From: an uncultured bacterium
Lineage (GTDB): Bacteria; Armatimonadota; Abditibacteriia; Abditibacteriales; Abditibacteriaceae
Reading direction: 5' to 3'
DNA: 64,000 nt
Assembly (NCBI GenBank): GCA_963843795.1
Contig: CAWJLW010000006.1
Location: 1,984,001 to 2,048,000, forward strand
The position numbers and the translations under genes are program-made. Positions 216 to 63,943 of this stretch are shown here, piece by piece. The notes under the pieces are model-generated. The model worked only from the letters and a program-made list of their open reading frames with translations. It made no database searches and was not told where the DNA came from. Numbering within the stretch: the stretch's first letter is position 1; each line of letters starts with the position of its first letter.

Positions 216-3200
216 ATGCAAGTACTTGCACCGCGTTTTTCACTCTGCTTTCTGTTACTGCTCTGCACTTTCGCGCGCGCCCAAAACGGGGCGGATAATT
301 GGCAAAAATTTCTTGCGCCACCAGAGCTATCGCCAACCAACTTTCTTTTCACGGTTCAATCCAATGGCGATCAGGCCGAAGGGCAACTTCTGCTGGGGCA
401 AGATGGCTCGTGGCAGGTGCAAGTACTTGCTGGGCCAAATCCAGCGCGCGCAATTATCGGCAATGGCAAAGAAACGCGCGTTGTGGATAACGCGACCAAA
501 CGCGTGCAACGCTTCGATTTCGATGCGCTGAATGAATGGTTTCGGGGCTTCGATGTAGACAACGGCGGGCCGGCGAACGTTTGGCTACGGCCTTCACCGC
601 AACTGGTCGCGCAAAATTACGATGTAAAAATGAGCAGCGTTGGCGGGCAAACCGTGCTCGATTTGACCGCTAATGCGCGTGGCAGGTACTTGCAGCGCGA
701 GGGCGTTCTGGTCGGCGGTGCCGGCGGCGGACGTTATTACGCGGCGCGCAAGATTCCGGCTTGGAACCGACCTTATCGCATTCAATTGAAATTTTCGGCT
801 CCGCAAGTACTTGCCATGCGCACCGATTTCGCGCCCGATAATCGGGTGTTGCAAATGCTGGATTACAGCTACGAAAACGCGCGTCCAAAAACCATCACAG
901 TGCGCGATGCCGATAAACGTGTGCTGGCGACGTGGAGTTATCAGTGGTCAACACCTGATCCAACCGCACCCCCCGGTTTTGTCCTGCCCGATGCGCCAAT
1001 TATCGAAGAAAACACCCCAGGCGAAAATTTCGCCAATCAGGCGTCGCAGGTGTGGAATCAGGGCGTGATTCAAACGCGACGGGAAGATTGGCGCTCGGCG
1101 TTGGCTTCGTTCGCACGCGCCGGACAACTCGCGCCCGCAGCGTTAGCTGCGCCCAGCGCGCAGTTCGATGCCGCGCTGCAAGTGCGAGATACCGCAGCAA
1201 CTTTGGATGCCTTGGCGCACATCGCGAAAATCGCGGGCGACAGCGATTATGAAACCATTTCGCGTCGCTTGCGCTGGTACAGCTTGCAACGCGATTCAAC
1301 CGCGGCGCGCGCCGATTTAAATGCGCTGGCTGCCGATAAAACGCCACGTTCGCAATGGCTGCGCGCGACGACGTGGCGCACTTTGGGCGACCAAGCCGCT
1401 GCCGTTCAAGCGGCCCGCGAGACTTTGGATAATCCGCAAACGCCAGCTAGTCTCGCTTTCGATGCCGCCGCATTTTTGATTGAAATCGCGCCCGCGACTT
1501 TGGCCGCCGAAATCGAAAAAAATACAACCAACGCTCCCGCGCATCAAATTGCCGCACGTTTACTGCGCAACCAAGTCACACCCTTGAGCGCCGCACAACT
1601 CCAAGAAAATGTCACACATGTACGCGCGCTGGTCTTGGTGGCGCGCACGTTGGAAGCACGCGGAGAGGACACGACAACGGTCTGGCAAAAAATCGTGGAC
1701 ACGGCGACAACTCCGCTGCAACAAATCGCGCAACGCCAATTGATGGCGCTGGCCGCACAGCGCGGTGATGCCCCCGCAAGTCTCACGATTTACACCGATT
1801 TGGCTGGGAATTTGAGCGACAACGATGTGGCGAGTTTGCAAAATTACTTGTTCAACGCGTGGGATAAATCAGGCAACATCGAAAAGCTGCGCGTTTCGAT
1901 GCAGAATCGCGCCATCAGCGTGCGCGCCCCTAGTTCCGACGCGCGTTTGTGGCTGGCTTATCAGCAGCAATACGCAAGCGCGGAGGAAGTTGCCAACAGC
2001 CTAAAAACCTTCGCGCTACGTTTTGGTGGTGCCAATGTTGATGGAAAAACGGCGGCGTGGTGGCACAGCGCGCTGGCCGAATATTATACCGGACAGGCCG
2101 AAACTGATAGCGTTTCGGGGACCAATTCCGTGCGCGACACTGCTTATCGCAACGCGCTGACGACGATTGACAAAGCCATTGGCGCTGATCCGGCAACGCG
2201 TTTTTATCAGATTCAAAAAGACTTGATCTCGATTCGTCGCGCCTCGCGCACCGCGCGCATTTCCGATGCAGGCACTGCGGTCGCCGAACGCGAAGCCGCA
2301 CAACGAGCGCTGGAACATCTGCGCACGCTTGATCCCGACGATCTCGATCTTCAAATCACCAGCGGCATCGCGCGCGTGGCAATGAACAAAGATACCGAGC
2401 AGGCGATTGCCGATTTTCGCGGTGCGATTGGTGGAGATGTCAGCTCTCCAGGTGCGCAACTCAACTTGCACGCAGCAATGCTGACGGCGAGGCAAGGTTT
2501 GGCCTCGGCTCTTTTGCAAAATAAAGATAACGCGGGCGCGCTGGCCGAATATGGACGTTTACTGGACGGCGCGCGCGAATCGGTGGTCGAAAGCGGCGTG
2601 GCGCTCAATGCGCTGAATGTTTTCGTCCCCACGCACGATGCAGTGGGCGCAGCAGGCTTGTCGGCACGTCTGGTAGCCGCGCCGTGGCGGTGGAGCGATA
2701 CGCAATCGCTGCTGGGCGACTGGTTTTCCGCTGTAGCGCGCCGTCCCGAATTTTTGCCCGCTGTGCGCGATGCGCTGGGCAAAAATTCCACAGCCGCCGC
2801 GCATTTAGCCGCTGCTTTAATCGACTTCACGCTTTTGGAAAATGCGCAGGCCAAAGCCGCGATGCCACAGGCCACTCCCGAAACCCGCGTCGCGCTTAAT
2901 CAGGTGGTCGCGCTGTGGCAAAATAGCGCGCAGCGCGTGCAGCAGATCGCTGCGAGCGATGATCCGATTTTATCACTGCAAGCTAACGCGCTCCTCGCCC
3001 AAGATGCCCTGACCAAACGCGATTACAACACTGCCGCAACTTACTACGCAGCAGCCATCGCGCGCGAACCGCTCGATTTGAACTTGCGTTTGGCTTATAC
3101 CAGCGCATTGGCCGCTGCGCCCGCGAACGTTGAGAACACAGACAAAATTATCGCAGCCCGCGACGATTACCTGCTGCGCGCGGGTCGCAGCGTTCTCAAT

Positions 3201-3575
3201 CTGCGCTACGCGGCGTCGATGTCGCTGCAAGCCCAACGCAATCAGGACGCCGTGGATTTGGCGCGCGAAGCTTTTCAGCGCGCGACCTTCGATGATAGCC
3301 AACTTTGGTTGTGGCGCGAAAGCGCTTTTCTCTATGCGCGTGCTCTGGCAGCGAACGGCAATAACGACGAAGCACAAAAACGGCTCACCAATTTGAGCGC
3401 GGCGCGCTGGGAAACTTTCCAACGCGTGGCCGCCTTGCAAGACGCGGCACGTCTGGCGCGCGCCGATGGCAAAGAACCCGAAGCCGCGCGTTTGGAGGCG
3501 CAAATACAAGGCATGGGTGCGAGCGCTCAAGATATGGCTTCAGCTCAAAACTTTCTGCGCGGTTTGGACGGTTGA
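216..3575 (+). CDS. Large secreted protein: beta-rich (LolA-like) N-terminal region followed by TPR-like helical repeats
   Basis: 1119-aa ORF with a signal peptide (FSLCFLLLLCTFARA-Q) and Ala/Leu-rich TPR-like helices. The domain names are pattern-based guesses. Confidence 0.7.
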   Translation: MQVLAPRFSLCFLLLLCTFARAQNGADNWQKFLAPPELSPTNFLFTVQSNGDQAEGQLLLGQDGSWQVQVLAGPNPARAIIGNGKETRVVDNATKRVQRFDFDALNEWFRGFDVDNGGPANVWLRPSPQLVAQNYDVKMSSVGGQTVLDLTANARGRYLQREGVLVGGAGGGRYYAARKIPAWNRPYRIQLKFSAPQVLAMRTDFAPDNRVLQMLDYSYENARPKTITVRDADKRVLATWSYQWSTPDPTAPPGFVLPDAPIIEENTPGENFANQASQVWNQGVIQTRREDWRSALASFARAGQLAPAALAAPSAQFDAALQVRDTAATLDALAHIAKIAGDSDYETISRRLRWYSLQRDSTAARADLNALAADKTPRSQWLRATTWRTLGDQAAAVQAARETLDNPQTPASLAFDAAAFLIEIAPATLAAEIEKNTTNAPAHQIAARLLRNQVTPLSAAQLQENVTHVRALVLVARTLEARGEDTTTVWQKIVDTATTPLQQIAQRQLMALAAQRGDAPASLTIYTDLAGNLSDNDVASLQNYLFNAWDKSGNIEKLRVSMQNRAISVRAPSSDARLWLAYQQQYASAEEVANSLKTFALRFGGANVDGKTAAWWHSALAEYYTGQAETDSVSGTNSVRDTAYRNALTTIDKAIGADPATRFYQIQKDLISIRRASRTARISDAGTAVAEREAAQRALEHLRTLDPDDLDLQITSGIARVAMNKDTEQAIADFRGAIGGDVSSPGAQLNLHAAMLTARQGLASALLQNKDNAGALAEYGRLLDGARESVVESGVALNALNVFVPTHDAVGAAGLSARLVAAPWRWSDTQSLLGDWFSAVARRPEFLPAVRDALGKNSTAAAHLAAALIDFTLLENAQAKAAMPQATPETRVALNQVVALWQNSAQRVQQIAASDDPILSLQANALLAQDALTKRDYNTAATYYAAAIAREPLDLNLRLAYTSALAAAPANVENTDKIIAARDDYLLRAGRSVLNLRYAASMSLQAQRNQDAVDLAREAFQRATFDDSQLWLWRESAFLYARALAANGNNDEAQKRLTNLSAARWETFQRVAALQDAARLARADGKEPEAARLEAQIQGMGASAQDMASAQNFLRGLDG

Positions 3576-3608
3576 AGTGCGCTGCAAGTACTTGCAGCGC
3601 ACTTCAAC
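3571..3608. terminator. 38-bp perfect palindrome centred on the motif, between convergent genes
   Basis: GTTGAAGTGCGCTGCAAGT/ACTTGCAGCGCACTTCAAC. It contains both stop codons and has no clear U-tract. Confidence 0.6.
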
Positions 3609-13330: not shown

Positions 13331-13364
13331 AAAAGCGCCCTGCAAGTACTTGCAGGGCGCTTTT
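13331..13364. terminator. Bidirectional terminator; 34-bp perfect palindrome on the motif
   Basis: AAAAGCGCCCTGCAAGTACTTGCAGGGCGCTTTT between convergent genes. Confidence 0.85.
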
Positions 13365-17540: not shown

Positions 17541-18716
17541 TCAACTGACAATTTCTTTTAATTCACTCAACAATTCATCAATTTCCGCGCGCGTATTAGT
17601 AACGCCCAGCGACACGCGCAGGCTGGCTTTGGCCAATTTTTTTTCAACTCCCATCGCGCGCAAAACGTGCGATGGTTCAATCGCGCCACTGCTGCACGCC
17701 GAACCAGTTCCGACCGCGAAACCTGCCAAATCTAATCTCAATGCCAAACTTTCGCCGCGACAATTTGACAGCGAAAAATTGACGACGTGCGGTGCCCGCG
17801 CGCTCCCCACACCGTGAATTTCCACACCTTTCATGGCAGCCAAACCATTTTCCAAATGCTCGCGCAGCTCGAACAACGCCGCGCGATTAGTTTCCAAATC
17901 GCGTTTAGCAATCGCGCACGCCGCGCCGAATCCGACGATGCCGGGCACGTTTTCAGTGCCCGCGCGCCGTCCGCGCTCCTGACCTCCGCCGCGTAGCAAA
18001 GCGCGCATCGGCGTGCCGCGTTTAATCCATAGCGCGCCCACACCTTTTGGCCCGCCGACTTTATGCGCCGACAAGCTCATCAAATCCAGCCCCCATTCGT
18101 GCGCGCTGATTTTTATTTTGCCCGCCGCTTGTACAGCATCACAATGCAGCATCGCGCCTGTGCCCGCAAGTACTTGCGCAAGGGTTTCCATCTCTTGAAT
18201 GACGCCGGTTTCGTTATTGACCGCCATAATCGAAACCACAGCGGTTTTTTCATCAACCAATTCACGTAGCGCTTCAAGTTCGCAAACACCGTCTTTATCA
18301 ACTGGCGCGATAACGATTTCGCAGCCCAATTCGCGGAGCAGTTCGGCAGTTTCCAAAACCGCATCGTGTTCAATTGCCGACATAACGACACGATTGCGAC
18401 CCTGCGGTAGTTGCGCCAAAGCAACGCCTAAAAGCGCCCAGTTGTCGCTTTCGGTACCACCCGAAGTGAAAACAATTTCATCGGGATGGGCGCCGATAAG
18501 CCGCGCGACTTGCTGCCGTGAGGTGTCGATGGCACCGCGCGCGTGACGGCTGACGGCATACGGGCTGCTGGCATTGCCAAACCAATGCGTCCAAAAAGGC
18601 TCCATCGCCGCGCGTACTTCGTCCAGCAACGGCGTCGTCGCCGCGTGATCGAAATAAATGCGCGTGCGATTATGCGCGGAATTCGTCTTAGGCTTGGTTT
18701 CTAGTATCGCGTTCAT
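17541..18716 (-). CDS. iscS: Cysteine desulfurase (IscS/NifS type)
   Basis: YFDHAATTP, FTSGGTESDN, SAHKVGGPKG and GSACSSG. Lies upstream of mnmA. Confidence 0.9.
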   Translation of the reverse strand: MNAILETKPKTNSAHNRTRIYFDHAATTPLLDEVRAAMEPFWTHWFGNASSPYAVSRHARGAIDTSRQQVARLIGAHPDEIVFTSGGTESDNWALLGVALAQLPQGRNRVVMSAIEHDAVLETAELLRELGCEIVIAPVDKDGVCELEALRELVDEKTAVVSIMAVNNETGVIQEMETLAQVLAGTGAMLHCDAVQAAGKIKISAHEWGLDLMSLSAHKVGGPKGVGALWIKRGTPMRALLRGGGQERGRRAGTENVPGIVGFGAACAIAKRDLETNRAALFELREHLENGLAAMKGVEIHGVGSARAPHVVNFSLSNCRGESLALRLDLAGFAVGTGSACSSGAIEPSHVLRAMGVEKKLAKASLRVSLGVTNTRAEIDELLSELKEIVS

Positions 18717-18827: not shown

Positions 18828-21800
18828 ATGAATTTCGCCCAGCTTATTGAGCAAACGCCGCGCGACCCCAACGCTCTCGACACGCTGTTAGCGCAACTCG
18901 GCTTTTTCGATCCCAGCGAAAAAAGTTCCGCTGCGCCAATTCAAAACGCCATCAGCGGCCATCGTTTCATCACGCCTGCCGGTGTCAAACCCAAAACTTC
19001 GCGTCGCAAAAAAGTATCTGTCGCGGCGCCCAGCCAAATGCCGATTGTCGCGCCTAACTCGACCCAACGCGCGCAGCGAGTTTTAGAAACCATCGCGCGC
19101 GACGAAGTGGAGCGCGCAGCGTGGCTGCAAATTGTGGACGCGGTGATGCAAGATTGCGCGCGCGCTTCCGACCCGTTCGTATCGCTGTTCAATCTGTCGC
19201 GTTTGAGCGAAGCGGTCTCCGACCGCGCCCTATTTTTCGTTGAATTGCAAGATGATGATTTTCGCGCGCGTTTGTGTCGTCTGCTTTCATTTTCGCAATC
19301 GCTGGCCGATTCGCTGATTCAAAATCCGCACTGGCTCGATTTGCACGCGCCCGCCCAACCGATTTCACGCCCGCAGTTGCGCATTTTGGCGCAAAAAGCG
19401 ATGGACGAATTTTCAACGCCAAACGAAAAATTGGATGCGCTACGACGTTTTCGCCAGCAGCATTTTTTGCGAATAGGCACGTTAGATTTGGAATCGCAAA
19501 CCTGGCGCGATGAAGCGGATTTTGCGATTGTAACGCAGCAAATTTCCGATTTGGCGCAAGTGTGCGTGCAAAAGGCGTTGCAGGTACTTGCACCGGACAA
19601 TCCGCCTTTTTGCGTTTTAATCATGGGCAAGGGCGGTGCGCGCGAATTGAACTATTCGTCTGATATCGACCTGATTTTTCTGCACAACGGCGAAAGTGAA
19701 GCTATGAGCGCCTTAGGCCGCAGTTTACTGCGCGAGCTGGGCGCGACGACCGCGAGCGGCACCTTATATCGCGTCGATATGCGTTTGCGGCCTGAGGGCA
19801 GCAGTGGACCGCTGACGACTTCGTTTGGCTACGCATTGAGCTATTACGAATCGTTCGCCGCGCCGTGGGAATGGCAAGCCTTGATAAAAGCGCGCGCAAT
19901 TGCAGGCGATGCCAAATTGGGCCGACGGTTTTTGCGTTTTACGCGCGGGGTGACGTGGGCGCGACGCGCCGACGACGATCATTTGCAAGCCATCGTAGAT
20001 ATGAAGCGACGCTCGGAAGCAACTGCTGACGGGCGCGATAATCTCAACGTAAAATCCGGACCGGGCGGCATTCGCGATGCCGAGTGGATCGTACAACAGT
20101 TGCAAATGATGGTTGGCCCGCAGCATCCGCGCGCGCGCGTGGCGGCGACACTGGACGCGTTGCAAGTACTTGCCGAACTTGATGCGCTGAGTTTTGAACA
20201 AGCGCGCGAACTGCGCGACGGTTATCTATTTCTGCGCGTTTTAGAGCATCGGTTGCAATTGTGGCAAGAGCGCGCAATTCGCAATTTGCCAACATCCGAA
20301 GCGGAGAAAGCGGCTTTGGCACGTCGCGTCGGTTGTCGCGCGCGCGGTGCCAGTGCGGCGCGCTGGCTAGACGAAGAACACGCGCGCCATCAGAAAAGTA
20401 TTCGCGCGCTGTGCGAACATTTGTTCTGGGGTTGGCGCCAATCATCGCGCGAAGCGGCCACAACTGCAGTGCACGGACTTGTACCGGACGCAGACGCCGA
20501 AATGCAAACGCGCTTGAATCGCTTGCAACGCGGCAGCGAAAATCAGCCGCTACCAGCACCTTTAGCACGACAAATCGGCGCGGTTTTGCCCGCCGCGTTG
20601 CAGCATTTGAACAGCGCCGCGCAGCCCGCACGCGCGCTGGCCAATCTGGAACGTTTGTGCGACAATAGCGGCAATCGCTTGAGCGTTCTGCGCGATTTGG
20701 CCGCTTCGCCCGATTTATCGAGCGCGATTTTCGCCATTTTGGGTGGCGCGCGCGAAGTCGCCGATACCCTGGTCGATACGCCAGAATTGTTGGATTTGGC
20801 GGCCCAGCGCTCTTTGCTGGCGCGCGGTCGTGATGAAAACGAAGCGCGCGCGGCGTGTCGCGATTACTGCCTGACTTTTCGCGATCGTCATGCGGCTTTA
20901 CGGCGCTGGAAACATCGCGAAATGTTGCGCATCGCGCTGCGCGATCTCAGCGTGCGCGCGCCCACCGTTCGCATCAGCGCGGGCATCTCTTATTTGTGCC
21001 GCGCCTGTTTGGAACTGGCTTTGGAAGAAATCGGACGCGAGTTGCATCCGAACTTGGGCGCGCTGGGTTTCGCCGTGTTGGGTATGGGAAAGTTGGGCGG
21101 TGCCGAAATGCATCCGGCTTCAGACGCTGATGTCATCTGGGTGCACGACGCGCCCGCCGATTGGGAAAATGCGGGCAAAATCGCCGCGCAACTGGCCAAT
21201 GAAATCACGCATTATTTGGGCGCGCACAGCGGCGGCGTGCGCGTTTGGGAAGTCGATGCGCGCCTGCGCCCCGAAGGTCGCAATGGAATTTTAGCGCCCT
21301 CGGTCGAAGGTTTCGTGCATTACTTCGAGCGTCAAAGCGGTGGTTTGAGCGTTTGGGAGCGACAAGCCTTGACGCGCGCGCGTTTCGTAGCGGGCGATGC
21401 GCGCACGGGCGCGCGCTTGATGGCCTTGATTCGTCACGTCGCTTATCCCGAAACGTGGCAAGCGCAATGGAGCGATGAACTGCGCCACATTAAACATCGC
21501 GTCGAAACCGAACGCGCGCGCGCCGGAAGCGAGACGATTTACGATGTGAAATTGGGACGCGGCGCGCTCAGCGACATCGAATGGGCGGCGCAATGGCTGG
21601 CGATGAAACACGGCGCGCAATTTCTCGAATTGCAGCGCCCGAACACGCTGCAAGTACTTGCAGCCGCCAAAGATGCGCAGTTGTTGGGTGAAAGCGAAGA
21701 ACGCGCTTTGCGCGAAGCGTATGAGTTTTTGCAGCGCGCCCAAATTCGCCTGCATTGGGCGCTGGACAATCCAAGCGCCGCGCAAATCGAAAATTCAATC

Positions 21801-27887: not shown

Positions 27888-27966
27888 ATCCAACACCAAA
27901 ATTTTCTCATATCCGCAAGTACCTGCAGCGCACGATTTGTACGCTGCAAGTACTTGCAGACACGCT

Positions 27967-46427: not shown

Positions 46428-48566
46428 TCAGCTGCCCCACAATTCAATTTCGGTCAGGCCCGCAACGGCGCCGTTTCGATGCTCGATTTGCACGCGCATT
46501 TTTGCGGTTTCCACTGGCGCAAACTCGATGCGATTGGCGCGATGGCCAACCGGGGCAGTGAAATCGCGTTTTTGCTTGACCACTGCGCGCCACACTTGGC
46601 CATTCCACCATTGCAATTGAGCAGTTTGGGGCGCGCGCACTTGGGAATTTTCGCCGTCATCGAGCCAATAAAAGAACGCTCGCGATATTTTCCGCTGGCT
46701 GCCGAAATCGATTTCTATCCAATCGTTTTGATGAGGTGAACCTTCAAATATCCAACGATTGTGCGGTTTTTCCGAATAAAAATGTACGCCGTCGACCAGA
46801 TTTTTCAAGTCTGCAAGTACTTGCGAACGGGAAAACGACGCGGTGATTTTCGGGTACGCGGTTTTTTCATTATTAACCGCATAATTCACCCAAGATTTCT
46901 CCGCTTTATCCGATTTTTTGATCGACTTTGGCAAAGCGACTTCCAAACGCCCAAGAGTTTCGCGCTGTGTCGCGCGTTTTCCATCAACCCAAATTTGCAA
47001 ACCGCGCCCGCGTTCGTAGCGCGAACCATCAGCGTCCCAAAATATCGAAAGTTGATGGCCGCGATAGAGAACATCATCCAAAGCGAAATATTTCCAATCT
47101 AAGGGCGCGAGAGGATTGACTTCAATGATATCGTCGTCGCGCGGGCGCAGGCCGATTAAACCGGTGATGACTTGATCGTTGTAGCTGGAGTGAAAATAAT
47201 GCTCGGAATGTTGAGGGTTGTCGTAGCCTTGCCACGAACCGGTGTCAGAATTGGCAGCTTCGGCCAAATAAGGCTGACCCGCTTTTCTATGAGTTTTCGT
47301 ATATGTTTGCAGCAATTCGAAATAATCAGCGCGCGTCACGACATTTTGCGGATAATCATTCAAAACATTGGCTAAAGCCGTCAATGTTTGCGCAGTCGCA
47401 TAAGGCCACGATTGGCCGCTCCACCAACAGCAAGTTTCGGTAATTTTGAACAAAGGATCGTTGCGCCCGACAAACGATGGCCCGAACTCAGCTTGAAAAA
47501 ATTTCGGATCGTTGAGAAATTTCCATGCCGCTTCATAACCGCGATTTTTCTCCGGCAATTCAAATTGCCACGGAATGTAACCCATCAATTCGCGTCCTTG
47601 ATTGCTGCCAGCGAACGGCCCGCTTTGGTAGGTCAGAGTTCCTGCCAGATTAGGTTTTGGTGCGCCGTTTTTGGTCAAGCCATCGGCTTCGTTATCACGG
47701 AACTGATGAAAGAAAAACTGGCGTTTTTCGTCCCATAATTGTTGCTGAACATTATCTTTTAATTGCGCAGCGATTTGTTCGTAGAAGCGCGCGGTTTCCA
47801 GGTCTTTGTCCAGTCGCGCCATTTTTGACAAGGCGCGCGCATCGGCGAACAGATAGGAATTTAAAGTCGGACGATAACCGGGCGCGCCTTTGACAATATC
47901 AGTGGTCTGGCGCGAATTGATGTTCAATTCCATGCCGTCGTCGTGGCCGGTTTGCCAGAACATTCCGGCATCAGCGCGGAAGTGTTCGCGCTGCCAACCG
48001 GCAAAGTTTTCCTGCAAGCCCGCGCGCAATTCGAGCAGCCAATTTTTATCGCCCTGCACGCGGTAAGTTTCCCAGATAGCGTCGGCCAACCACGTCGAAT
48101 AGCGGCGCGGTTCGCTACCTTTGGTGTTCGTCCAGTAACGCGCATAATCGCGTGCAATGCGCGTCGTTTTCAACCAGCGCGCCTCCTGCAACTGATGACC
48201 AGCCGGACACGAAATCGCGCCGTAACGTCCCGACCAGTGAGGCCGGTCGATAAATTCGGTGAAAATGTAACCGGTTTGCGGCGAAGCATACACCAGATGT
48301 TTGGTCAAAAGTTCCCAGCGATAGTAATACGTTGTGTTGATATCATCGTCTGGTGTGTCGAGGAAAGGCACGTTGGTTTCATACCAACTCCAATCGCGAT
48401 TGTCCCAGAAAGTTTGCGCTTCGAGAATGGCGCGCTTGTTTAGCAAAAGCGCGCCATTTTTCAAGACCATATTTGGTGGAATTTTCCTTTGTTTCAATAT
48501 CCAAGCCCCGAACGCAAATACGCCGATAAAAGCGGCGCTGGCGAGAATGCGGATACTGAATTTCAT
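46428..48566 (-). CDS. Secreted (alpha/alpha)6 glycoside hydrolase (GH63/MGH1-like) with a C-terminal discoidin-type domain
   Basis: YYYRW, DGME, RPTLNSY and W.G.SWPY.T motifs; C-terminal WIEIDFG...EIE. Confidence 0.75.
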   Translation of the reverse strand: MKFSIRILASAAFIGVFAFGAWILKQRKIPPNMVLKNGALLLNKRAILEAQTFWDNRDWSWYETNVPFLDTPDDDINTTYYYRWELLTKHLVYASPQTGYIFTEFIDRPHWSGRYGAISCPAGHQLQEARWLKTTRIARDYARYWTNTKGSEPRRYSTWLADAIWETYRVQGDKNWLLELRAGLQENFAGWQREHFRADAGMFWQTGHDDGMELNINSRQTTDIVKGAPGYRPTLNSYLFADARALSKMARLDKDLETARFYEQIAAQLKDNVQQQLWDEKRQFFFHQFRDNEADGLTKNGAPKPNLAGTLTYQSGPFAGSNQGRELMGYIPWQFELPEKNRGYEAAWKFLNDPKFFQAEFGPSFVGRNDPLFKITETCCWWSGQSWPYATAQTLTALANVLNDYPQNVVTRADYFELLQTYTKTHRKAGQPYLAEAANSDTGSWQGYDNPQHSEHYFHSSYNDQVITGLIGLRPRDDDIIEVNPLAPLDWKYFALDDVLYRGHQLSIFWDADGSRYERGRGLQIWVDGKRATQRETLGRLEVALPKSIKKSDKAEKSWVNYAVNNEKTAYPKITASFSRSQVLADLKNLVDGVHFYSEKPHNRWIFEGSPHQNDWIEIDFGSQRKISRAFFYWLDDGENSQVRAPQTAQLQWWNGQVWRAVVKQKRDFTAPVGHRANRIEFAPVETAKMRVQIEHRNGAVAGLTEIELWGS

Positions 48567-53208: not shown

Positions 53209-54213
53209 ATGAAATGTATTCTGACCGGTTTGGGTGGACGCGGACGCCACTGGCTGAGCATCTTGAACCAGCGAGATGATGTCGAAGTCGTAGCCGCCGT
53301 CGAGCCATTTGAAACTAATCGCCAGCGCGCCATCGACGACAACGCAATTGATGCCGAACGCATTTTTCCAACTTTAGAAGAAGCCATCGCCAAAAGCAAT
53401 GCCGACTTTGTCATGGACGTGACGCCCCCCAAAGTGCATCATGAAATCGCTCTACAAGCTTTCGCTTCCGGCTTACACGTTCTGGGCGAAAAGCCGCTTT
53501 CCGACGATTTCGAGACCGCAAGAAAAGTTGTGCAAGCGGGTAAAAGCGCGGGCGTGACGCACATGATTACGCAAAATTATCGTTTCGGCGCGCAGCCGCG
53601 CACTACACGGCAAGTACTTGCCGACGGTTTAATCGGCAAGCCCGGACAGTGCGACGTGCGTTTTGCGATGCCGTGGGCCGATCAGCCGGGAAGCCATTAT
53701 GTCACCGAGCCTTATATGATGATTAATGACATGATGGTGCATCATTTCGATTTGATGCGCTACGTTCTCAACGACACGCCGCAAACCATTCAAGCGATTA
53801 CGTGGAATCAGCCGTGGGGATGGCATCAGGGCGATTCGTGTCACGCAATTGTCGTGGAATGGAAGTCCGGCCTGCACGCGACGCACGTTTGCATCGCGTG
53901 CGCGAATGGCAGTCAGACTTCGTGGAACGGCGATTGGTCAATCCAAGGTCCGAACGGTTCGATTGATTGGGACAAAGAAGGCACATGGCATTCGCATTTG
54001 CATCGCACGGACAACAAAGTTGAACGCCAGCGCATCGCGCATTTGGATGTGAAGCCACAAGCCGAAGCAATGGTAGACGAATTTTTTGATTCGATTCGTG
54101 AAAATCGCGAACCCGAATGCTCGGCCCAAGACAATCTACAATCGCTCGCGATGGTTTTCAGCGCTATTGAAAGCGCCCAAAGCGGGCGCAAAGTCGAGAT
54201 AGCAAGGGTTTGA
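53209..54213 (+). CDS. Gfo/Idh/MocA family oxidoreductase
   Basis: GLGGRG, EKPL, QNYRF and HHFDL. Confidence 0.92.
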   Translation: MKCILTGLGGRGRHWLSILNQRDDVEVVAAVEPFETNRQRAIDDNAIDAERIFPTLEEAIAKSNADFVMDVTPPKVHHEIALQAFASGLHVLGEKPLSDDFETARKVVQAGKSAGVTHMITQNYRFGAQPRTTRQVLADGLIGKPGQCDVRFAMPWADQPGSHYVTEPYMMINDMMVHHFDLMRYVLNDTPQTIQAITWNQPWGWHQGDSCHAIVVEWKSGLHATHVCIACANGSQTSWNGDWSIQGPNGSIDWDKEGTWHSHLHRTDNKVERQRIAHLDVKPQAEAMVDEFFDSIRENREPECSAQDNLQSLAMVFSAIESAQSGRKVEIARV

Positions 54214-54246: not shown

Positions 54247-56346
54247 ATGCAACAGTTATTCTCACCTATCCAACTCGAAACTCTGCGCGCCCTTTGGCAG
54301 CGCTTGATTCCCACCGATGAACAATGGCCCGGTGCCTTACAAAATGGCGTCGAGAATTATCTCGAACGCCAATTGAACGGCCAATTACAAGACCAGTTAC
54401 CGCTTTATCGCAACGCTCTAGACGCTTTGGAAACCCGCGCGCAAGAAGATACACAGCAAAGTTTCGCGTCGCTGGAAGCCAATCGTGCCGACGAATTACT
54501 GCACGAAATAGACTCTTCAAAAGGTGACAATTCGTTGCGCGATTGGCTTCGTTTGGCCATCAACCACACGATGGAAGGCTTTTACAGCGACCGGAGCAAC
54601 GGCGGCAATTCAGAACATTTGTCGTGGCAAATGACCGGGTTCATGCGCAACAGCGAACCGGCCACTTCGCCCGATACTCTGCAATTCTGGGCACAAAATG
54701 ATCCGCAAGTACTTGCAGACACTTACGACGCAATCATTATCGGCGCGGGCGCGGGCGGCGGCGTTTCAGCGTGCATTCTTAGCGAAGCGGGCCACCGAGT
54801 TCTGGTTTTAGAACGCGGGCGCGATCTCAGTTTCGAGGATATTCACCACGATCATTTGCGTTCACAACGGATGTCACTTTACGGCCATAATGCTGGCCCA
54901 AGCGACGAACATCCGCGCGTCGCAGAAGACGATAAACGCACTTTCACCATGCTACCGTGGCAAGGCGGCTACAGCAACAACGCCGCGTGCGTCGGCGGCG
55001 GCACGCGCGTTTATGGCGCACAGGCGTGGCGTTTCATGGCGCAAGATTTCCGCATGGCCTCGCATTATGGCGTGCCAGAAAATTCATCTCTCGCCGATTG
55101 GCCGCTGAGCTACGATGACCTCGCGCCATTTTATGAGCGCATCGAAAACGAACTTGGCGTCTGCGGTTCGGGCGCGCGCATGACAGGTCACACACAACGC
55201 CGCGGCGATTATCCGATGCCTCCACTTGCGCCAACCGCGAAAACGCGTTTTTTGCAAGGCGGCGCCGATAAACTGGGCTGGCCGACTTTTCCCGTTCCCC
55301 TCGCGATTAATTCCGTCCCTTATGGCGGACGCGGCGCCTGCATTCGCTGTACAGAGTGCGTCGGTTTCGCTTGTCCGACTGCAGCCAAAGCCGGTTCGCA
55401 CAACACGTTTTTACCGCGCGCGCTTCGTGCGGGCGCGACTTTAGTGACTGGAGCAATGGTCGCGCGTATCGAATGCGATTCTCAAGGCAAAGCCATCGGC
55501 GTGGAATGGCTGCAACACGACGGCGACAACTGGCAGAGCCGCACCACGCGCGCAAAAATGATTTTGTGTGCCAGTGGCGCGATTGAAACCGCGCGTTTGT
55601 TGTTGAATTCCGCCACGCCACAAGAACCCAACGGTCTGGGCAACGCGCACGACCATGTCGGACGCAATTTGCAAGGCCATTTATATGCGGGCGCATGGGG
55701 CGTGACAGAAGAACGTGTCAATAACAACGAAGGGCCGGGCGTTTCGATTTCTACCAATCGATGGAGCCACGACAACGACGGCATTATTGGCGGCGGAATG
55801 TTGGCAGACGACTTTCTCAAGCCGCCAATCGAATTCTGGCGCAACGCGCTGCCGCCGGAGTTAACACGTTGGGGCACCGAAAACAAAAACTGGATGCGCG
55901 ACAATTATCAGCGCACGCTGCAAGTCGCCGGGCCGATTCAAGAAATTCCTAACCCGGAAGCGCGCGTGCGCCTTGACCCAAATGTGCGCGATGCTTGGGG
56001 CATTCCAGTAGCGCACCTGAGTGGCGTGGCGCATTCGGCATCGGTCGAGGCCGCCGATTTTCTGCGCCATCGCGCCGAAGAATGGCTCCAAGCCAGCGGC
56101 TGTCATCGCGTGTGGAGCTACGCACCGGGCACTTATTTATCGGGAGGTCAGCATCAGGCCGGAACCTGTCGCATGAGCGAACGCGCAGAAGATGGCGTGT
56201 GCGATAAATTCGGGCGCGTGCATGGCCACGATAATCTATTTTTGGTCGACAGTTCAGTTCACGTCACCAATGGCGGCTTCAATCCGTTCCTCACAGTAAT
56301 GTCACTCTCGGCGCGCTGCGCGGAGAATATTGTGGCACAAGGGTAA
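54247..56346 (+). CDS. GMC family oxidoreductase fused to an N-terminal gluconate 2-dehydrogenase subunit-3-like domain
   Basis: N-terminal LIP.D...PGA....EGFY.D...GGN....W...GF, then GAGAGG, VGGGT, C..C..C...C and HQAGTCRM. Confidence 0.9.
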   Translation: MQQLFSPIQLETLRALWQRLIPTDEQWPGALQNGVENYLERQLNGQLQDQLPLYRNALDALETRAQEDTQQSFASLEANRADELLHEIDSSKGDNSLRDWLRLAINHTMEGFYSDRSNGGNSEHLSWQMTGFMRNSEPATSPDTLQFWAQNDPQVLADTYDAIIIGAGAGGGVSACILSEAGHRVLVLERGRDLSFEDIHHDHLRSQRMSLYGHNAGPSDEHPRVAEDDKRTFTMLPWQGGYSNNAACVGGGTRVYGAQAWRFMAQDFRMASHYGVPENSSLADWPLSYDDLAPFYERIENELGVCGSGARMTGHTQRRGDYPMPPLAPTAKTRFLQGGADKLGWPTFPVPLAINSVPYGGRGACIRCTECVGFACPTAAKAGSHNTFLPRALRAGATLVTGAMVARIECDSQGKAIGVEWLQHDGDNWQSRTTRAKMILCASGAIETARLLLNSATPQEPNGLGNAHDHVGRNLQGHLYAGAWGVTEERVNNNEGPGVSISTNRWSHDNDGIIGGGMLADDFLKPPIEFWRNALPPELTRWGTENKNWMRDNYQRTLQVAGPIQEIPNPEARVRLDPNVRDAWGIPVAHLSGVAHSASVEAADFLRHRAEEWLQASGCHRVWSYAPGTYLSGGQHQAGTCRMSERAEDGVCDKFGRVHGHDNLFLVDSSVHVTNGGFNPFLTVMSLSARCAENIVAQG

Positions 56347-56429: not shown

Positions 56430-56927
56430 ATGGACAAGTTTCCATTTTTTTATGCGTGGCATGGCCGCTGGACAGGTGGCGATTGGTTCTACAAAATTTA
56501 TATCGCGCCCCACGCTTTGTACGGAGCCGTCATCGGCAATCAGTTTCCCCTGCCAGCCGAAACAGCTTCCATCCAGATTCAGCCGGTGGAGCCCAAAAAT
56601 TGGCTGGCATCGTGGAACAGTTCGCTGTTCTATCAGGTAGATGAAATTCATCGTCCACTCGAAAACTTTTATGATTCTTTAGAGCCTGATAACCTGGAAT
56701 TATTGACAACAGATGCACGCAACTTTTGTTTCGTGCGTGAACAAATCAAAGAAATTCGCTTCAGTCCGCGTTTTCATTGGTGGACGTTTCCAACACTCAA
56801 TAGTGGCACAATGCACATCCACTTGCACGACCAAAAGAAATTATGGTTCGTCATTCAGAAAAATCAGAACACGCGCGCCATCGCCAATCAGGTTCAAACC
56901 GTCACCCCAAATATCAAGATCAAATAA
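56430..56927 (+). CDS. Hypothetical protein
   Basis: 165-aa ORF filling the gap, with no recognisable motif. Confidence 0.6.
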
Positions 56928-56951
56928 TCGCGCTGCCAGTGCTTGCGATAC

Positions 56952-57005
56952 GAAAAGCCAAAAATGCCCGCTGCAAGTACTTGCAGCGGGCATTTTTGGC
57001 TTTTC
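56952..57005. terminator. 54-bp perfect palindrome on the motif (bidirectional terminator)
   Basis: GAAAAGCCAAAAATGCCCGCTGCAAGT/ACTTGCAGCGGGCATTTTTGGCTTTTC. Confidence 0.88.
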
Positions 57006-57014
57006 TATTGGAGA

Positions 57015-58485
<1,471 letters not shown>

Positions 58486-60913: not shown

Positions 60914-60928
60914 CATTTTGAATCGTAT

Positions 60929-62701: not shown

Positions 62702-63943
62702 TTAAGTGTGGTATTCGGCGTTGATTTTAACGTAGTCATACGAAAAATCACACGTCCAAGCTGTCCAATTGGACGCGCCTGCGCCAATGCGCACGCGAAT
62801 CGTCAAATCTTCGTGGCTCATCGCAGTTTCAGCTTCTGAAACATCGAAATTCAACGGCTCACCGTTCTCGAAAACTTTCACGTCACCGATTTCAATCGAC
62901 AACTGGGCCGCATCGAAATCGACACCAGCGCGTCCCGCCGCCATTGCCAAACGGCCCCAGTTCGGGTCGCGACCAAAAATCGCGGTTTTTACCAGAGGGG
63001 AATTGGCGATTGTCATCGCAATTTTTTTGGCGTCGCCTTCGGTGTTGGCGCCCGTAACCTCAATCGTAACCAGCTTAGTCGCGCCTTCGCCATCGCGCGC
63101 AATTTTGCGCGCCAATTCGTCGCAAACCTGCTGCAGCAATTGTATAAATTGCTCTTGATTATCGTCATCGATTTCGACGCCGCTCTGCCCGCCCGCAATC
63201 AGAATTGCGGTGTCGTTGGTTGAAGTGTCGCCATCGACAGTGACGGAGTTGAACGAGCGCGCAACGGCCCGCTCCAGCAAAGTTTGCAAACGCGCTTTGT
63301 CGATTTTCGCGTCGGTTGTCAAAAACGCCAGCATCGTGGCGTGTAAATTCGTGCTGCAAGTACTTGTGGGAACGAAATGCGCCATGTCGGGGCCAATCAT
63401 GCCGACGCCCTTGGCCTGTCCGCCGACCGTCACAATGTGGCCGTCGATTTCGGTTTGCGCGGCGCAGTGTTTGGGCACGACATCGGTTGTCATTGATGCG
63501 CGCGCGCTGGCTGCAGAAAATTCATCGCCATGACCCACTGCAAGTACTTGCAGCGCGCTTTCAACTTTTTCCAGTGGCAAAGCGTGGCCGATAATTCCGG
63601 TCGAGCAGATCAAAACTTCTTCGCTGACACAGCCGATTTTCTGTGCCGCCAGCTCGCACATTCTTTCGGCATTTTTCAAACCTTGCGCGCCGGTGCAGCA
63701 ATTCGCGTTGCCAGAATTGAACACGATGGCGCGCGTAGTCGCGTTGGTGGCGTGCTGCGCGCACACCAAAACTGGCGCGGCTTTGACCTGATTTTGTGTC
63801 CAGACCGCAGCAGCGACCGAGTTTTCGGGCGCGATAATTAATCCGACATCTTCGCCGCTTTGTTTGATGCCGCCGCGCGCGCCACCGGCTTGAAAACCGC
63901 GCGGCGACGCGACGCCACCATTGGCAAGTACTTGCAGTGTCAT
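62702..63943 (-). CDS. argJ: Glutamate N-acetyltransferase ArgJ
   Basis: NSGNANC.TG, STGIIG, MTTD, AKG.GMI.P.M...ATML, DGDTSTND, DGEGATK and INAEYHT. Likely start is ATG 63943. Confidence 0.96.
   Translation of the reverse strand: MTLQVLANGGVASPRGFQAGGARGGIKQSGEDVGLIIAPENSVAAAVWTQNQVKAAPVLVCAQHATNATTRAIVFNSGNANCCTGAQGLKNAERMCELAAQKIGCVSEEVLICSTGIIGHALPLEKVESALQVLAVGHGDEFSAASARASMTTDVVPKHCAAQTEIDGHIVTVGGQAKGVGMIGPDMAHFVPTSTCSTNLHATMLAFLTTDAKIDKARLQTLLERAVARSFNSVTVDGDTSTNDTAILIAGGQSGVEIDDDNQEQFIQLLQQVCDELARKIARDGEGATKLVTIEVTGANTEGDAKKIAMTIANSPLVKTAIFGRDPNWGRLAMAAGRAGVDFDAAQLSIEIGDVKVFENGEPLNFDVSEAETAMSHEDLTIRVRIGAGASNWTAWTCDFSYDYVKINAEYHT

What the first reader, a model, noticed from the sequence alone, without database searches (positions are those of the whole stretch)
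216..63936. The motif is written into protein sequences, almost always as Q-V-L-A
Seen: about 20 exact or variant copies fall in real CDSs: ORF 216 (x4, one overlapping the start ATG), iscS, glnE (x3), glnD, the VIT protein (x2), the ATPase, pyc, the glycoside hydrolase, the Gfo enzyme, the GMC enzyme, argJ (x3) and two propeller proteins. About 16 use the frame CAA-GTA-CTT-GCN (QVLA). Only about 3 use the A-S-T-C frame and about 2 the K-Y-L frame. The same codons recur even though GTA and CTT look like minor codons here. In glnE, copies at 20162 and 21650 sit at near-equivalent positions of the two duplicated modules. Inference: the DNA word is generated or selected, and protein constraint filters the frame, as reported for HIP1 and USS.
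Basis: partly seen in the sequence, partly recalled or inferred. Interest (0 to 1): 0.75.

Follow-up and report, generated by a model that had tools for sequence, protein, structure and literature searches.

The report
Abundant DNA palindrome written into proteins
A 12-16-base DNA palindrome (GCAAGTACTTGC) occurs about 2,600 times in this verrucomicrobial genome, and inside genes it was written by point changes and is read mostly as Gln-Val-Leu-Ala, likely because proteins tolerate that reading frame best.

Summary
The window has 40 exact GCAAGTACTTGC copies (expected about 0.2). Of these, 21 lie in ORF calls: 15 QVLA, 4 ASTC, 2 KYL. After curation, 12 of 13 secure coding copies read QVLA.

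Genome-wide there are 2,567 copies in 4.3 Mb. About half are non-coding. Strictly coding copies split 348 QVLA, 107 KYL, 69 ASTC.

- **Codon test:** 435 of 489 QVLA tetrapeptides are spelled CAAGTACTTGCN, against 0.37% expected from codon usage.
- **Relatives:** QVLA is 9-13 times rarer per codon in the comparison sets.
- **Origin:** 30 of 38 orthologous sites align without gaps, so copies arose by substitution.
- **Sister species:** it carries its own word, CAAAGTACTTTG, with other peptides (QSTL, KYF, KVL) and a different frame order.
- **Non-coding copies:** they form the core of hairpins like AAAAGCGCGCTGCAAGTACTTGCAGCGCGCTTTT, a median 29 nt after stop codons.

What drives the word is unknown. 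The scan noted similar palindromes in two other genomes.

The parts
218..229 (+). Exact 12-mer overlapping the ATG (216) of ORF 216..3575 and read M-Q-V-L-A. The true start is uncertain.
419..430 (+). Exact 12-mer in the QVLA frame, in ORF 216..3575 (no Pfam family).
682..693 (+). One-mismatch variant GCAGGTACTTGC in ORF 216..3575, in the KYL register.
803..814 (+). Exact 12-mer in the QVLA frame, in ORF 216..3575.
18166..18177 (-). Exact 12-mer in the QVLA frame, in the class-V aminotransferase (IscS-like). The G001 orthologue reads QRTR, ungapped.
19580..19591 (+). Variant GCAGGTACTTGC in the QVLA frame, in glnE. G001 reads KVLC, ungapped.
20162..20173 (+). Exact 12-mer in the QVLA frame, in glnE module 1 (aa 470-473). 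G001 reads EVLR, ungapped.
21650..21661 (+). Exact 12-mer in the QVLA frame, in glnE module 2. It is offset by 3 residues from the module-1 copy in the alignment of the two modules.
22571..22582 (+). Variant GCAAATACTTGC in the KYL register, in glnD. G001 reads ETL, ungapped.
27504..27515 (-). Exact 12-mer in the ASTC frame, in the Reg_prop propeller protein. It is the only secure non-QVLA coding copy in the window.
27946..27957 (-). Exact 12-mer in the QVLA register at codon 8 of the same ORF. Whether it is coding is uncertain.
30305..30316 (-). Exact 12-mer in the QVLA frame, in the VIT-domain protein. G001 reads QPLS, ungapped.
35703..35714 (+). Variant GCAAGTCCTTGC in the QVLA frame, in the AAA ATPase.
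38176..38187 (-). Exact 12-mer in the QVLA frame, in pyruvate carboxylase. G001 reads QQLP, ungapped.
46813..46824 (-). Exact 12-mer in the QVLA frame, in the MGH1/GH65-type glycoside hydrolase.
53610..53621 (+). Exact 12-mer in the QVLA frame, in the GFO_IDH_MocA oxidoreductase. G001 reads KVLE, ungapped.
54705..54716 (+). Exact 12-mer in the QVLA frame, in the GMC oxidoreductase.
63356..63367 (-). Variant GCAAGTACTTGT in the ASTC register, in argJ.
63540..63551 (-). Exact 12-mer in the QVLA frame, in argJ.
63924..63935 (-). Exact 12-mer in the QVLA frame, in argJ.
56951..57006 (.). 54-nt perfect hairpin (-45.5 kcal/mol) centred on the copy at 56973. It was scored 'KYL' in ORF 56920..58485 but lies after the true SAHH stop, so it is a non-coding, terminator-like copy.
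13331..13364 (.). Non-coding copy: aaaaagcgccctGCAAGTACTTGCagggcgctttt, 17 nt after a stop, predicted hairpin -28.7 kcal/mol. It is one example of the terminator-like class. Others of this class are at 3584, 7660, 36206, 40457, 44209, 51023, 56369 and 60889.

Best explanation
The QVLA tetrapeptides are a by-product of a hyper-abundant DNA palindrome (GCAAGTACTTGC, extended consensus CTGCAAGTACTTGCAG) that was written into existing codons by point substitution. Which of its three reading frames persists is likely decided by what the proteins tolerate.

Shown directly:
- The word is about 10,000-fold over-represented.
- It is enriched in all three frames and even more in non-coding DNA.
- It fixes otherwise rare codons (GTA, CTT, GCA).
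- It raises QVLA, ASTC and xKYLx in this proteome only.
- It aligns without gaps to orthologues that lack it.

Inferred:
- A sequence-specific, genome-wide bias or selection acts on the DNA word itself. The closest analogues are the DNA uptake sequences of Neisseriaceae and Pasteurellaceae and HIP1 of cyanobacteria. This force keeps creating and retaining copies.
- Purifying selection on proteins then removes copies in frames that force Cys, Trp or stop codons or rarely tolerated peptides. This leaves about 66% QVLA, 20% KYL and 13% ASTC.
- Non-coding DNA just after genes is the most permissive place. There the palindrome is built into longer hairpins flanked by A- and T-runs, which would act as bidirectional intrinsic terminators.

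The agent that reads the word is not identified. It could be an uptake receptor, a methyltransferase or another DNA-binding protein.
For: - **Abundance:** 2,567 12-mers in 4.30 Mb, making it the top k-mer at every k from 8 to 16. The mismatch spectrum for 0/1/2/3 mismatches is 2567/506/371/1534, against 0.25/9/150/1504 expected.
- **Frames:** 348 QVLA, 107 KYL and 69 ASTC among 524 strictly coding copies; 405/133/97 among 635 interior copies.
- **Codons:** 89% of QVLA is spelled by the word against 0.37% expected. ASTC: 106 of 121. xKYLx: 139 of 150. The most over-represented tetrapeptides in the proteome are all word-derived: CKYL 52x, ASTC 38x, KYLQ 24x, QVLA 15x.
- **Species specificity:** the 12-mer has 0-3 copies in each of 40 relatives. 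QVLA per 100,000 codons is 47.2 here, 3.6 in G001 and 5.2 in other loci.
- **Substitution origin:** 30 of 38 orthologous sites are ungapped. G001 often already has x-V-L-x there.
- **Independent replicate 1:** same-genus G001 has the dialect CAAAGTACTTTG. AAAGTACTTT occurs 214 times in 347 kb, and the core AAGTACTT 2,725 times in the genome. G001 is enriched for its own peptides: QSTL 57.0 against 2.2, KYF 46.3 against 6.1. Its frame order differs: 46 QSTL, 33 KVL, 31 KY[FL].
- **Independent replicate 2:** GC-rich metagenome contigs (GC 0.58-0.71, 66-88% nt identity to this genome) carry the same 10-mer at about 1 per kb. Their frames are 43 QVL, 26 KYL and 6 ASTC among 75 coding sites.
- **Frame order and peptides:** the order matches the background peptide frequency in motif-free sets (QVLA 3.6-5.2, xKYLx 0.5-1.8, ASTC 0 per 100,000 codons).
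- **Even spread in genes:** coding copies lie along the whole gene at 0.16-0.24 per kb in all gene-length classes.
- **Literature parallels:** reading-frame bias and peptide enrichment for uptake sequences (PMC2817400, abstract and section 18). Dialects and terminator pairing (PMC3630211, passages). HIP1 enriched in all three frames and in non-coding DNA (PMC5861425, passages).
Against: - Gene calls are my own crude codon-score ORF picker, not a curated annotation. At least three window copies first scored as coding proved to be non-coding, so the KYL and ASTC shares may be somewhat inflated.
- Relative to composition, ASTC (38x) and CKYL (52x) are more enriched than QVLA (15x). QVLA dominates because its baseline is high, not because the other frames are excluded.
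- 8 of 38 orthologue alignments have a gap within the 10-residue window, so a few insertions cannot be excluded.
- The comparison sets are small. The G001 sample is 112,000 codons. The 80 other loci are all pyc neighbourhoods and are not independent.
- Nothing identifies the driving agent. ComEC is present in motif-free relatives too. No Vsr or C5 methylase was found. The single PF01555 methylase has similar matches in motif-free relatives. The Y1_Tnp hit is weak.
- GTAC outside the word is only mildly depleted (observed/expected 0.61).
- Unlike the report for uptake sequences, codon preference does not explain the frame order here. The KYL register has the best codons (0.0415) against QVLA (0.0037) (PMC2817400 section 18).
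Confidence: 0.85

Rival explanations
1. Uptake-signal version of the drive. The word is a self-recognition tag for natural transformation. Fragments that carry it would be taken up preferentially, and recombination would spread new copies, as with DUS and USS.
For: - Density is about 0.6 per kb, and the ratio of exact to one-mismatch copies is 5:1, similar to the 21% extra reported for kingDUS (PMC3630211 passages).
- The two same-genus species use mutually exclusive dialects: 2706 against 46 in one and 0 against 214 in the other. One dialect differs by an inserted base pair per half-site, as wadDUS differs from AT-DUS.
- Copies are recruited to terminator-like hairpins.
- Frame bias and peptide enrichment match what is reported for uptake sequences.
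- A ComEC gene is present.
- Spacing is more even than random: 35 gaps over 5 kb against 85 expected.
Against: - Known uptake sequences are asymmetric; this word is a perfect palindrome.
- ComEC is equally present in three motif-free relatives.
- No receptor was identified.
- Among the papers listed, none holds both Verrucomicrobi* and 'uptake sequence'.
- Competence is untested.
Confidence: 0.3
2. HIP1-like version of the drive. The word is the site of a methyltransferase or another abundant DNA-binding protein, and it is kept by selection at the DNA level, for example for chromosome organisation, repair or self-marking.
For: - It is a palindrome, as expected for a dimeric reader.
- It is enriched in all frames and in non-coding DNA, like HIP1 (PMC5861425 passages).
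- The core AAGTACTT is strikingly avoided in several same-family genomes (0 copies against 77-153 for the reversed control). This suggests that enzymes in this family target GTAC or AGTACT.
- 5 of 30 orthologous coding sites carry the exact core in both species.
Against: - Only one PF01555 methylase is present, with similar matches in motif-free relatives. No C5 methylase was found.
- GTAC outside the word is only mildly depleted (0.61).
- There are no methylome data.
Confidence: 0.25
3. Terminator-first. The functional unit is the roughly 34-bp hairpin after genes. Its inner stem-loop is homogenised among terminators, and coding copies are spill-over from the same conversion process.
For: - 1,323 of 2,567 copies are intergenic, with the consensus AAAA.cGCgCTGCAAGTACTTGCAGcGCg.TTTT.
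- Density is 4.05 per kb in convergent, 2.99 in tandem and 1.68 in divergent spacers. The median distance after a stop is 29 nt.
- The outer stems vary with compensating changes.
- Predicted hairpins in the window reach about -24 to -45 kcal/mol.
Against: - About 650 interior coding copies exist against 0.2 expected, and almost all lack the extended palindrome.
- Copies are spread evenly along genes.
- 40% of divergent spacers, which have no 3' ends, carry one.
- A and T runs are symmetric even when oriented by the upstream gene: 599 against 555.
- G001's dialect is rarely inside a long palindrome: 10 of 115 have an extension of 7 or more.
- The GC-rich relatives show no A/T-tract consensus.
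- Termination itself is untested.
Confidence: 0.15
4. Mobile mini-element. The copies are insertions of a REP- or MITE-like palindromic element, including in-frame insertions into genes.
For: - The copies are interspersed palindromes, with many in intergenic DNA.
- 8 of 38 orthologue alignments have gaps nearby.
- A weak Y1_Tnp-like match exists.
Against: - 30 of 38 sites are ungapped.
- Conservation ends within about 36 bp: 2,566 distinct 40-mers among the copies counted, with only one 40-mer seen twice.
- The Y1_Tnp hit is partial (E 4e-7), is not specially flanked by the word, and is much stronger in motif-free relatives.
Confidence: 0.04
5. Protein-level motif. QVLA, or LQVLA, is a selected peptide, and the DNA identity is secondary.
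For: QVLA is 15x over the composition expectation.
Against: - 89% of QVLA shares one spelling that uses rare codons.
- The other two frames are even more enriched.
- Half of all copies are non-coding.
- The host proteins are unrelated.
- Orthologues carry other residues at those sites.
Confidence: 0.01

Closest known systems
DNA uptake sequences (DUS of Neisseriaceae, USS of Pasteurellaceae)
   Same: - A word of about 10-12 bases at roughly 0.6 per kb.
- Many copies lie inside genes, with a strong reading-frame bias and enrichment of the encoded peptides.
- Copies sit at poorly constrained residues.
- Copies are recruited into terminator-type stem-loops.
- Related species use dialects that share a core, one of them differing by an inserted base.

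(This report. Papers: PMC2817400 abstract and section 18; PMC3630211 passages.)
   Different: - This word is a perfect palindrome, so a single copy makes the stem-loop, not an inverted pair.
- The phylum is Verrucomicrobiota.
- Peptide enrichment is about 10-fold or more, not about 2-fold.
- Frame choice follows peptide frequency, not codon preference.
- Uptake bias, competence and a receptor are all untested.
HIP1 (GCGATCGC) and variant highly iterated palindromes of cyanobacteria
   Same: - A hyper-abundant palindrome.
- It is enriched in all three frames and in non-coding DNA.
- It is made of non-preferred codons.
- Lineage variants exist.
- Its function is unresolved.

(PMC5861425 passages; PMC4390886 abstract seen in the listing.) That HIP1 spreads by nucleotide substitution is my recollection of Robinson et al. 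1997, which I did not read here.
   Different: - The word is longer (12-16 bp against 8), with a different sequence and phylum.
- About half of the copies are embedded in terminator-like hairpins just after genes.
- No cognate methyltransferase was identified.
REP/BIME-type intergenic palindromes with RAYT transposases
   Same: Interspersed palindromic units of 30-36 bp lie between genes, with compensatory stem variation.
   Different: - A quarter or more of the copies are inside genes and arose by substitution.
- No convincing RAYT was found, and it is not flanked by the word.
Bidirectional intrinsic (Rho-independent) terminators
   Same: The non-coding copies have a GC-rich stem, a 4-nt loop, an upstream A-run and a downstream T-run. 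They lie a median 29 nt after stop codons and are densest between convergent genes.
   Different: - The inner 16 bp of the stem-loop is the same sequence at over a thousand sites.
- The T-runs are short (about 4).
- Function is not shown; no RNA run was listed.

Membership tests
DNA uptake sequences (DUS/USS) | A short word over-represented by orders of magnitude, at about 1 per kb, on the whole chromosome | tested here: met
   2,567 copies in 4.30 Mb against 0.25 expected.
DNA uptake sequences (DUS/USS) | Preferential uptake of, or transformation by, DNA that carries the word | not testable with these tools
   This needs a cultured strain and uptake assays.
DNA uptake sequences (DUS/USS) | Competence machinery with a word-specific receptor (ComP-type minor pilin in Neisseria) | tested here: inconclusive
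   ComEC (PF03772) is present, but it is also present in 3 motif-free relatives. A receptor cannot be recognised by homology.
DNA uptake sequences (DUS/USS) | Reading-frame bias and enrichment of the encoded peptides in the organism's own proteome only | tested here: met
DNA uptake sequences (DUS/USS) | Dialects sharing a core among related species | tested here: met
   GCAAGTACTTGC in this genome against CAAAGTACTTTG in G001; the shared core is AAGTACTT.
DNA uptake sequences (DUS/USS) | An asymmetric (non-palindromic) word, paired in inverted orientation at terminators | tested here: not met
   The word is its own reverse complement. Single copies form the hairpin core.
HIP1-type highly iterated palindromes | A palindromic word enriched in all three frames and in non-coding DNA | tested here: met
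HIP1-type highly iterated palindromes | The sequence GCGATCGC (or a GATC-centred variant) in cyanobacteria | tested here: not met
   The sequence is different and the phylum is Verrucomicrobiota.
HIP1-type highly iterated palindromes | Orphan methyltransferases that recognise sequences inside the word | tested here: inconclusive
   There is one PF01555 gene, with similar matches in motif-free relatives, and no PF00145. Specificity is unknown.
REP/RAYT elements | Confined to extragenic DNA | tested here: not met
   524-649 copies lie securely inside coding sequence.
REP/RAYT elements | A cognate RAYT (Y1 transposase) gene flanked by the repeats | tested here: not met
   Only a partial Y1_Tnp match (E 4e-7), with ordinary motif spacing around it.
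Intrinsic terminators (non-coding copies only) | A GC-rich hairpin followed by a T-run, just downstream of genes | tested here: met
   Consensus and positions. Folds reach about -24 to -45 kcal/mol for the long hairpins.
Intrinsic terminators (non-coding copies only) | Transcripts end at the T-run | not testable with these tools
   No RNA run was listed for this DNA.

The most novel reading that the evidence does not exclude
A clade of Verrucomicrobiota uses a palindromic self-recognition word with species dialects: GCAAGTACTTGC here and in GC-rich relatives, CAAAGTACTTTG in the sister species. It is an uptake-sequence-type system outside the Proteobacteria. Because the word is palindromic, one copy also serves as the core of a bidirectional terminator. 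The word has visibly rewritten each species' proteome: QVLA here, QSTL/KYF/KVL in the sister species.
Probability: 0.3. Interest if true: 0.8.

Novelty: new variant of a known kind. Interest (0 to 1): 0.6.

Why it matters
The frame bias itself is the expected footprint of a DNA-level word on proteins, as described for uptake sequences and HIP1. What is new is the system that carries it:
- a 12-16-bp palindrome in Verrucomicrobiota, about 10,000-fold over-represented;
- two mutually exclusive dialects in two species of one genus;
- the same word kept in relatives whose GC content ranges from 53% to about 70%;
- use as the invariant core of over a thousand terminator-like hairpins.

Full-text searches for the two word strings found only unrelated papers. 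Searches combining Verrucomicrobia with palindrome, terminator and uptake-sequence terms found nothing on it.

The two dialects give a natural experiment. The same genes were rewritten to different peptides by a one-base-pair change per half-site. This could help to find the protein that reads such words, a question still open for HIP1 after about 30 years.

In practice, the word distorts codon and peptide statistics. It can also mislead gene callers: terminator hairpins were read as coding sequence in this window.

Tried and rejected
- **Earlier notes of this scan:** none exist for this genome. A words look-up gave two notes on other genomes.
- **Literature by motif string:** only primers and unrelated hits.
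- **RNA evidence for termination:** no RNA holder was listed, so transcript ends could not be examined.
- **Positional conservation of 3'-flank copies between this genome and G001:** no association, 27 of 65 against 21 of 43. Paralogous hits blur this test.
- **Gene-content clues:**
  - ComEC is present in all 5 genomes tested.
  - Y1_Tnp is weak here and strong in motif-free relatives.
  - Vsr is absent here and in G001.
  - PF01555 has one copy, with similar matches in motif-free relatives.
  - PF00145 is absent.
  - The neighbourhoods of these genes show ordinary motif spacing.
- **Restriction-avoidance signal:** GTAC outside the word has observed/expected 0.61, weaker than GATC and CTAG (both 0.47), so this is not diagnostic.
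- **Motif deserts as islands:** there are only a few gaps over 10 kb (4 against 3 expected) and none over 15 kb.
- **Phage carriage:** 6 viral contigs, each with one copy of the 16-mer, so no enriched phage was seen.
- **Rejected explanations:**
  - Chance.
  - A peptide motif.
  - Assembly or adapter artefact: the copies are in frame in genes and align to orthologues, and the word is present in independent assemblies.
- **First gene-calling pass:** it missed genes because of overlap limits and was redone.

Full report
**1. The observation**

CAAGTACTTG occurs 42 times in the 64-kb window (dinucleotide shuffles gave a mean of 0.03). GCAAGTACTTGC occurs 40 times exactly, with 14 more one-mismatch copies. 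The word is its own reverse complement, so it has only three reading registers: G|CAA|GTA|CTT|GCN (Q-V-L-A), GCA|AGT|ACT|TGC (A-S-T-C) and GC|AAG|TAC|TTG|C (K-Y-L).

No annotation is available. I built a crude gene caller from long ORFs scored by a self-trained codon log-odds. It gave 3,371 ORFs covering 88.5% of the genome.

With argJ added by hand, 29 of the 54 exact or variant sites fall inside ORF calls: 18 QVLA (15 exact), 7 ASTC (4 exact) and 4 KYL (2 exact).

Several non-QVLA copies are not really coding:
- The copy at 56973 is the centre of a 54-nt perfect hairpin (-45.5 kcal/mol). It lies beyond the true end of the S-adenosylhomocysteine hydrolase gene. The canonical C-terminus ...[10 protein letters not shown] is read in another frame and stops near 57019.
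- 49926 and 49966 lie upstream of profile position 1 of the D-Tyr-tRNA deacylase domain.
- Six further copies sit within the first 10 codons of longest-ORF starts, so their coding status is uncertain.

The secure interior exact copies are 12 QVLA and 1 ASTC. For the window, 'almost always' is fair.

GTA (7.5% of Val codons), CTT (8.5% of Leu) and GCA (12.5% of Ala) are minor codons. The two glnE copies sit in the same aligned helix of the two homologous modules, offset by three residues.

**2. The whole genome**

The window lies in a 4.30-Mb assembly of 11 contigs with 53.5% GC. The 12-mer occurs 2,567 times and the 10-mer 2,706 times. The word and its overlapping sub-words top every k-mer list from k = 8 to 16. 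The extended consensus is the 16-bp palindrome CTGCAAGTACTTGCAG, with 879 copies.

The mismatch spectrum is very sharp. For 0/1/2/3 mismatches the counts are 2567/506/371/1534, against 0.25/9/150/1504 expected from composition. The one-mismatch copies are mostly transitions at two symmetric positions.

By my ORF calls, 1,323 copies are intergenic, 134 straddle a gene border and 1,110 are inside ORFs. Many apparent in-ORF copies lie in the uncertain first 30-60 nt of longest ORFs, where the frames are nearly equal. I therefore counted two stricter sets:
- Interior copies of confident ORFs: 405 QVLA, 133 KYL, 97 ASTC (n = 635).
- Copies with an open frame and a positive coding score on both sides: 348/107/69 (n = 524 of 2,564 examined).

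So QVLA is about 66% genome-wide, not 'almost always'.

**3.

*(a) Codon spelling.* In 1.04 M codons of confident CDS there are 489 QVLA tetrapeptides. Of these, 435 (89%) are spelled CAAGTACTTGCN and 19 more are CAGGTACTTGCN. Codon usage predicts 0.37%. The other 23 orderings of the same four residues occur 17-111 times each.

ASTC occurs 121 times, 106 of them spelled by the word; its permutations occur 0-14 times. [SGRC]KYL[LPHQR] occurs 150 times, 139 of them spelled by the word. The most over-represented tetrapeptides of the whole proteome are all products of the word: CKYL 52x, ASTC 38x, KYLQ 24x, QVLA 15x.

*(b) Relatives.* The 12-mer has 0-3 copies in each of 40 relatives, including a same-genus genome, G001 (63% complete). 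QVLA per 100,000 codons is 47.2 here, 3.6 in a 347-kb sample of G001 and 5.2 in 80 loci of other genomes. A control set of six permutations is flat at 15.4, 16.9 and 21.0. Those 80 loci are all pyc neighbourhoods and are not independent.

Both refutation criteria fail, so the DNA word is primary.

**4. Substitution or insertion**

G001 is about 70% identical in DNA. All 7 window sites with an alignable orthologue are ungapped. Examples are QVLA against QRTR, EVLR, QPLS, QQLP and KVLE.

I then fetched 60 G001 contigs. Of the 524 strict sites, 38 could be aligned. Thirty are ungapped across a 10-residue window and 8 have a gap nearby, mostly in poorly aligned stretches.

At the 30 ungapped sites, the G001 DNA matches the 12-mer at a mean of 6.6 of 12 positions. 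Five sites carry the exact core AAGTACTT at the same place. The usual partner is x-V-L-x.

So copies arise by point substitution at sites that were already similar, and they often change amino acids.

**5. An independent replicate: dialects**

G001 has its own hyper-abundant palindrome, CAAAGTACTTTG. AAAGTACTTT occurs 214 times in 347 kb, or 0.62 per kb. The shared core AAGTACTT occurs 2,965 times here and 2,725 times in G001. It occurs 0-90 times in the 39 other relatives. In several same-family genomes it is strikingly avoided: 0 copies against 77-153 for the reversed control.

The two dialects are mutually exclusive: 2706 against 46 here, and 0 against 214 in the G001 sample.

G001's proteome is enriched for its own word's peptides, per 100,000 codons:
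- QSTL: 57.0 against 2.2 here.
- KYF: 46.3 against 6.1.
- KVL: 78.4 against 24.7.

Its frame order also differs: 46 QSTL, 33 KVL and 31 KY[FL] among 110 coding sites out of 302. The register that gives QVLA here would need TGN (Cys, Trp or stop) after K-V-L in the full G001 word, and it loses its lead. This is the best evidence here that protein constraint chooses the frame.

A metagenome scan for the 16-mer found many contigs (L184-L263) with the following features:
- GC content of 0.58-0.71.
- 66-88% nt identity to this genome.
- The same 10-mer at about one per kb.

There the frames, assigned by GC3, are 43 QVL, 26 KYL and 6 ASTC among 75 coding sites out of 265 unique sites. These loci were picked by a central 16-mer, but only 6 of the 75 coding sites are that 16-mer.

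The word is therefore a trait of a clade and is kept across a wide GC range.

**6. Why QVLA**

- **Peptide background.** The frame order follows the background frequency of the peptides in motif-free sets: QVLA 3.6-5.2, xKYLx 0.5-1.8 and ASTC 0 per 100,000 codons.
- **Codon preference.** The order does not follow codon preference. The product of relative codon use is 0.0415 for KYL, 0.0037 for QVL and 0.0020 for ASTC.
- **Comparison with uptake sequences.** Findlay and Redfield found that codon scores explained the frames better than peptide frequency did (PMC2817400 section 18).

Relative to its own baseline, ASTC is actually more enriched than QVLA. The pressure acts in all frames, and QVLA wins on tolerance.

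**7. The other half of the copies**

The intergenic consensus is AAAA.cGCgCTGCAAGTACTTGCAGcGCg.TTTT. Perfect palindromy beyond the 12-mer has a second mode at 10-12 further base pairs per side.

Density per kb, with the share of spacers that carry a copy:
- Convergent spacers: 4.05 (67%).
- Tandem spacers: 2.99 (47%).
- Divergent spacers: 1.68 (40%).

This compares with about 0.2-0.3 per kb in coding DNA. The median distance from the stop codon is 29 nt.

The outer stems vary with compensating changes. AAAGCGCGCT...AGCGCGCTTT occurs 45 times...GCGCCC...GGGCGC... 18 times and ...GCGCTC...GAGCGC... 12 times. Beyond about 36 bp nothing is shared: there are 2,566 distinct 40-mers. Folds of the long window examples reach -24 to -45 kcal/mol.

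These look like bidirectional intrinsic terminators with a fixed inner stem-loop, but termination is untested; no RNA run was listed. The A and T runs are symmetric even when oriented by the upstream gene. G001's dialect is rarely inside a long palindrome. The GC-rich relatives show no A/T-run consensus. I therefore read the word as primary and the terminator context as a permissive or co-opted niche in this species.

Coding copies lack the extended palindrome. They are spread evenly along genes at a similar density in all gene-length classes.

**8. What drives it**

This is not resolved.
- A mobile element is unlikely: sites are ungapped, there is no shared body beyond about 36 bp, and there is only a partial Y1_Tnp match that is stronger in motif-free relatives.
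- ComEC is present, but it is also present in motif-free relatives.
- Vsr and C5 methylases were not found. The single N6/N4 methylase has similar matches in motif-free relatives.
- GTAC outside the word is only mildly depleted.
- Spacing is more even than random, roughly one copy per gene.

The pattern matches uptake sequences in these respects: density, sharp spectrum, dialects (one with an inserted base pair per half-site), frame bias, peptide enrichment and terminator niche (PMC3630211 passages; PMC2817400). It matches HIP1 in being a palindrome enriched in all frames with unknown function (PMC5861425 passages).

I give about 0.3 to an uptake-type drive, 0.25 to a methylase or DNA-binding-site selection and 0.15 to a terminator-first conversion process.

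**9. Novelty**

- Full-text searches for both word strings gave only unrelated papers.
- Searches combining Verrucomicrobia with palindrome, terminator, over-representation or uptake-sequence terms gave nothing on such a word.
- The taxon is Verrucomicrobiota, judged from the nearest pyc loci.
- Earlier notes of this scan describe similar hyper-abundant palindromes written into genes in a flavobacterium and in a Deinococcus relative. I did not check them.

The frame effect is a known kind of footprint. The system that carries it is a new variant.

**Limits**

- The gene calls are home-made.
- G001 is fragmentary.
- Comparison samples are 0.1-0.2 M codons.
- Frames in the metagenome contigs rest on GC3.
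- No expression, methylation or uptake data are available.

Noticed in passing
window 56920-57180 (- strand): The S-adenosylhomocysteine hydrolase ORF runs on in a wrong frame at its 3' end. The canonical C-terminus [10 protein letters not shown] is read in another frame and stops near 57019. This suggests a frameshift, real or an assembly error, somewhere upstream of that point.
   Followed up: partly
genomes G005, G008, G011, G018, G021, G022, G024: The 8-mer AAGTACTT is absent (0 copies) in several same-family genomes whose reversed control has 40-153 copies. This suggests strong avoidance, perhaps from restriction systems that target GTAC or AGTACT, in the very family where one genus has it thousands of times.
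   Followed up: no
G001 sample, loci L038-L097: The same-genus relative uses a different hyper-abundant palindrome, CAAAGTACTTTG. It has one extra A·T pair per half-site and is mostly not embedded in long hairpins.
   Followed up: yes
loci L184-L263 (metagenome contigs): Related organisms with 58-71% GC carry the same CAAGTACTTG word at about one per kb. None of the 24 same-family species representatives searched has it.
   Followed up: partly
whole genome: GATC and CTAG are each at 0.47 of their Markov expectation, which is lower than GTAC outside the word (0.61).
   Followed up: no
contig C6, genome-wide: 24 pairs of copies lie 12 or 13 nt apart (head-to-tail doublets such as GCAAGTACTTGCTGCAAGTACTTGC). 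Peaks also occur at 29-30 and 39 nt.
   Followed up: no
contigs C3, C11, C2, C4, C1: The small contigs have a much lower word density (0.07-0.33 per kb against 0.66 on the main contig). They may be mobile or recently acquired DNA.
   Followed up: no
contig C6 517681-543430: A region of about 26 kb has 49-50% GC and only one internal copy of the word. It is a candidate island.
   Followed up: no
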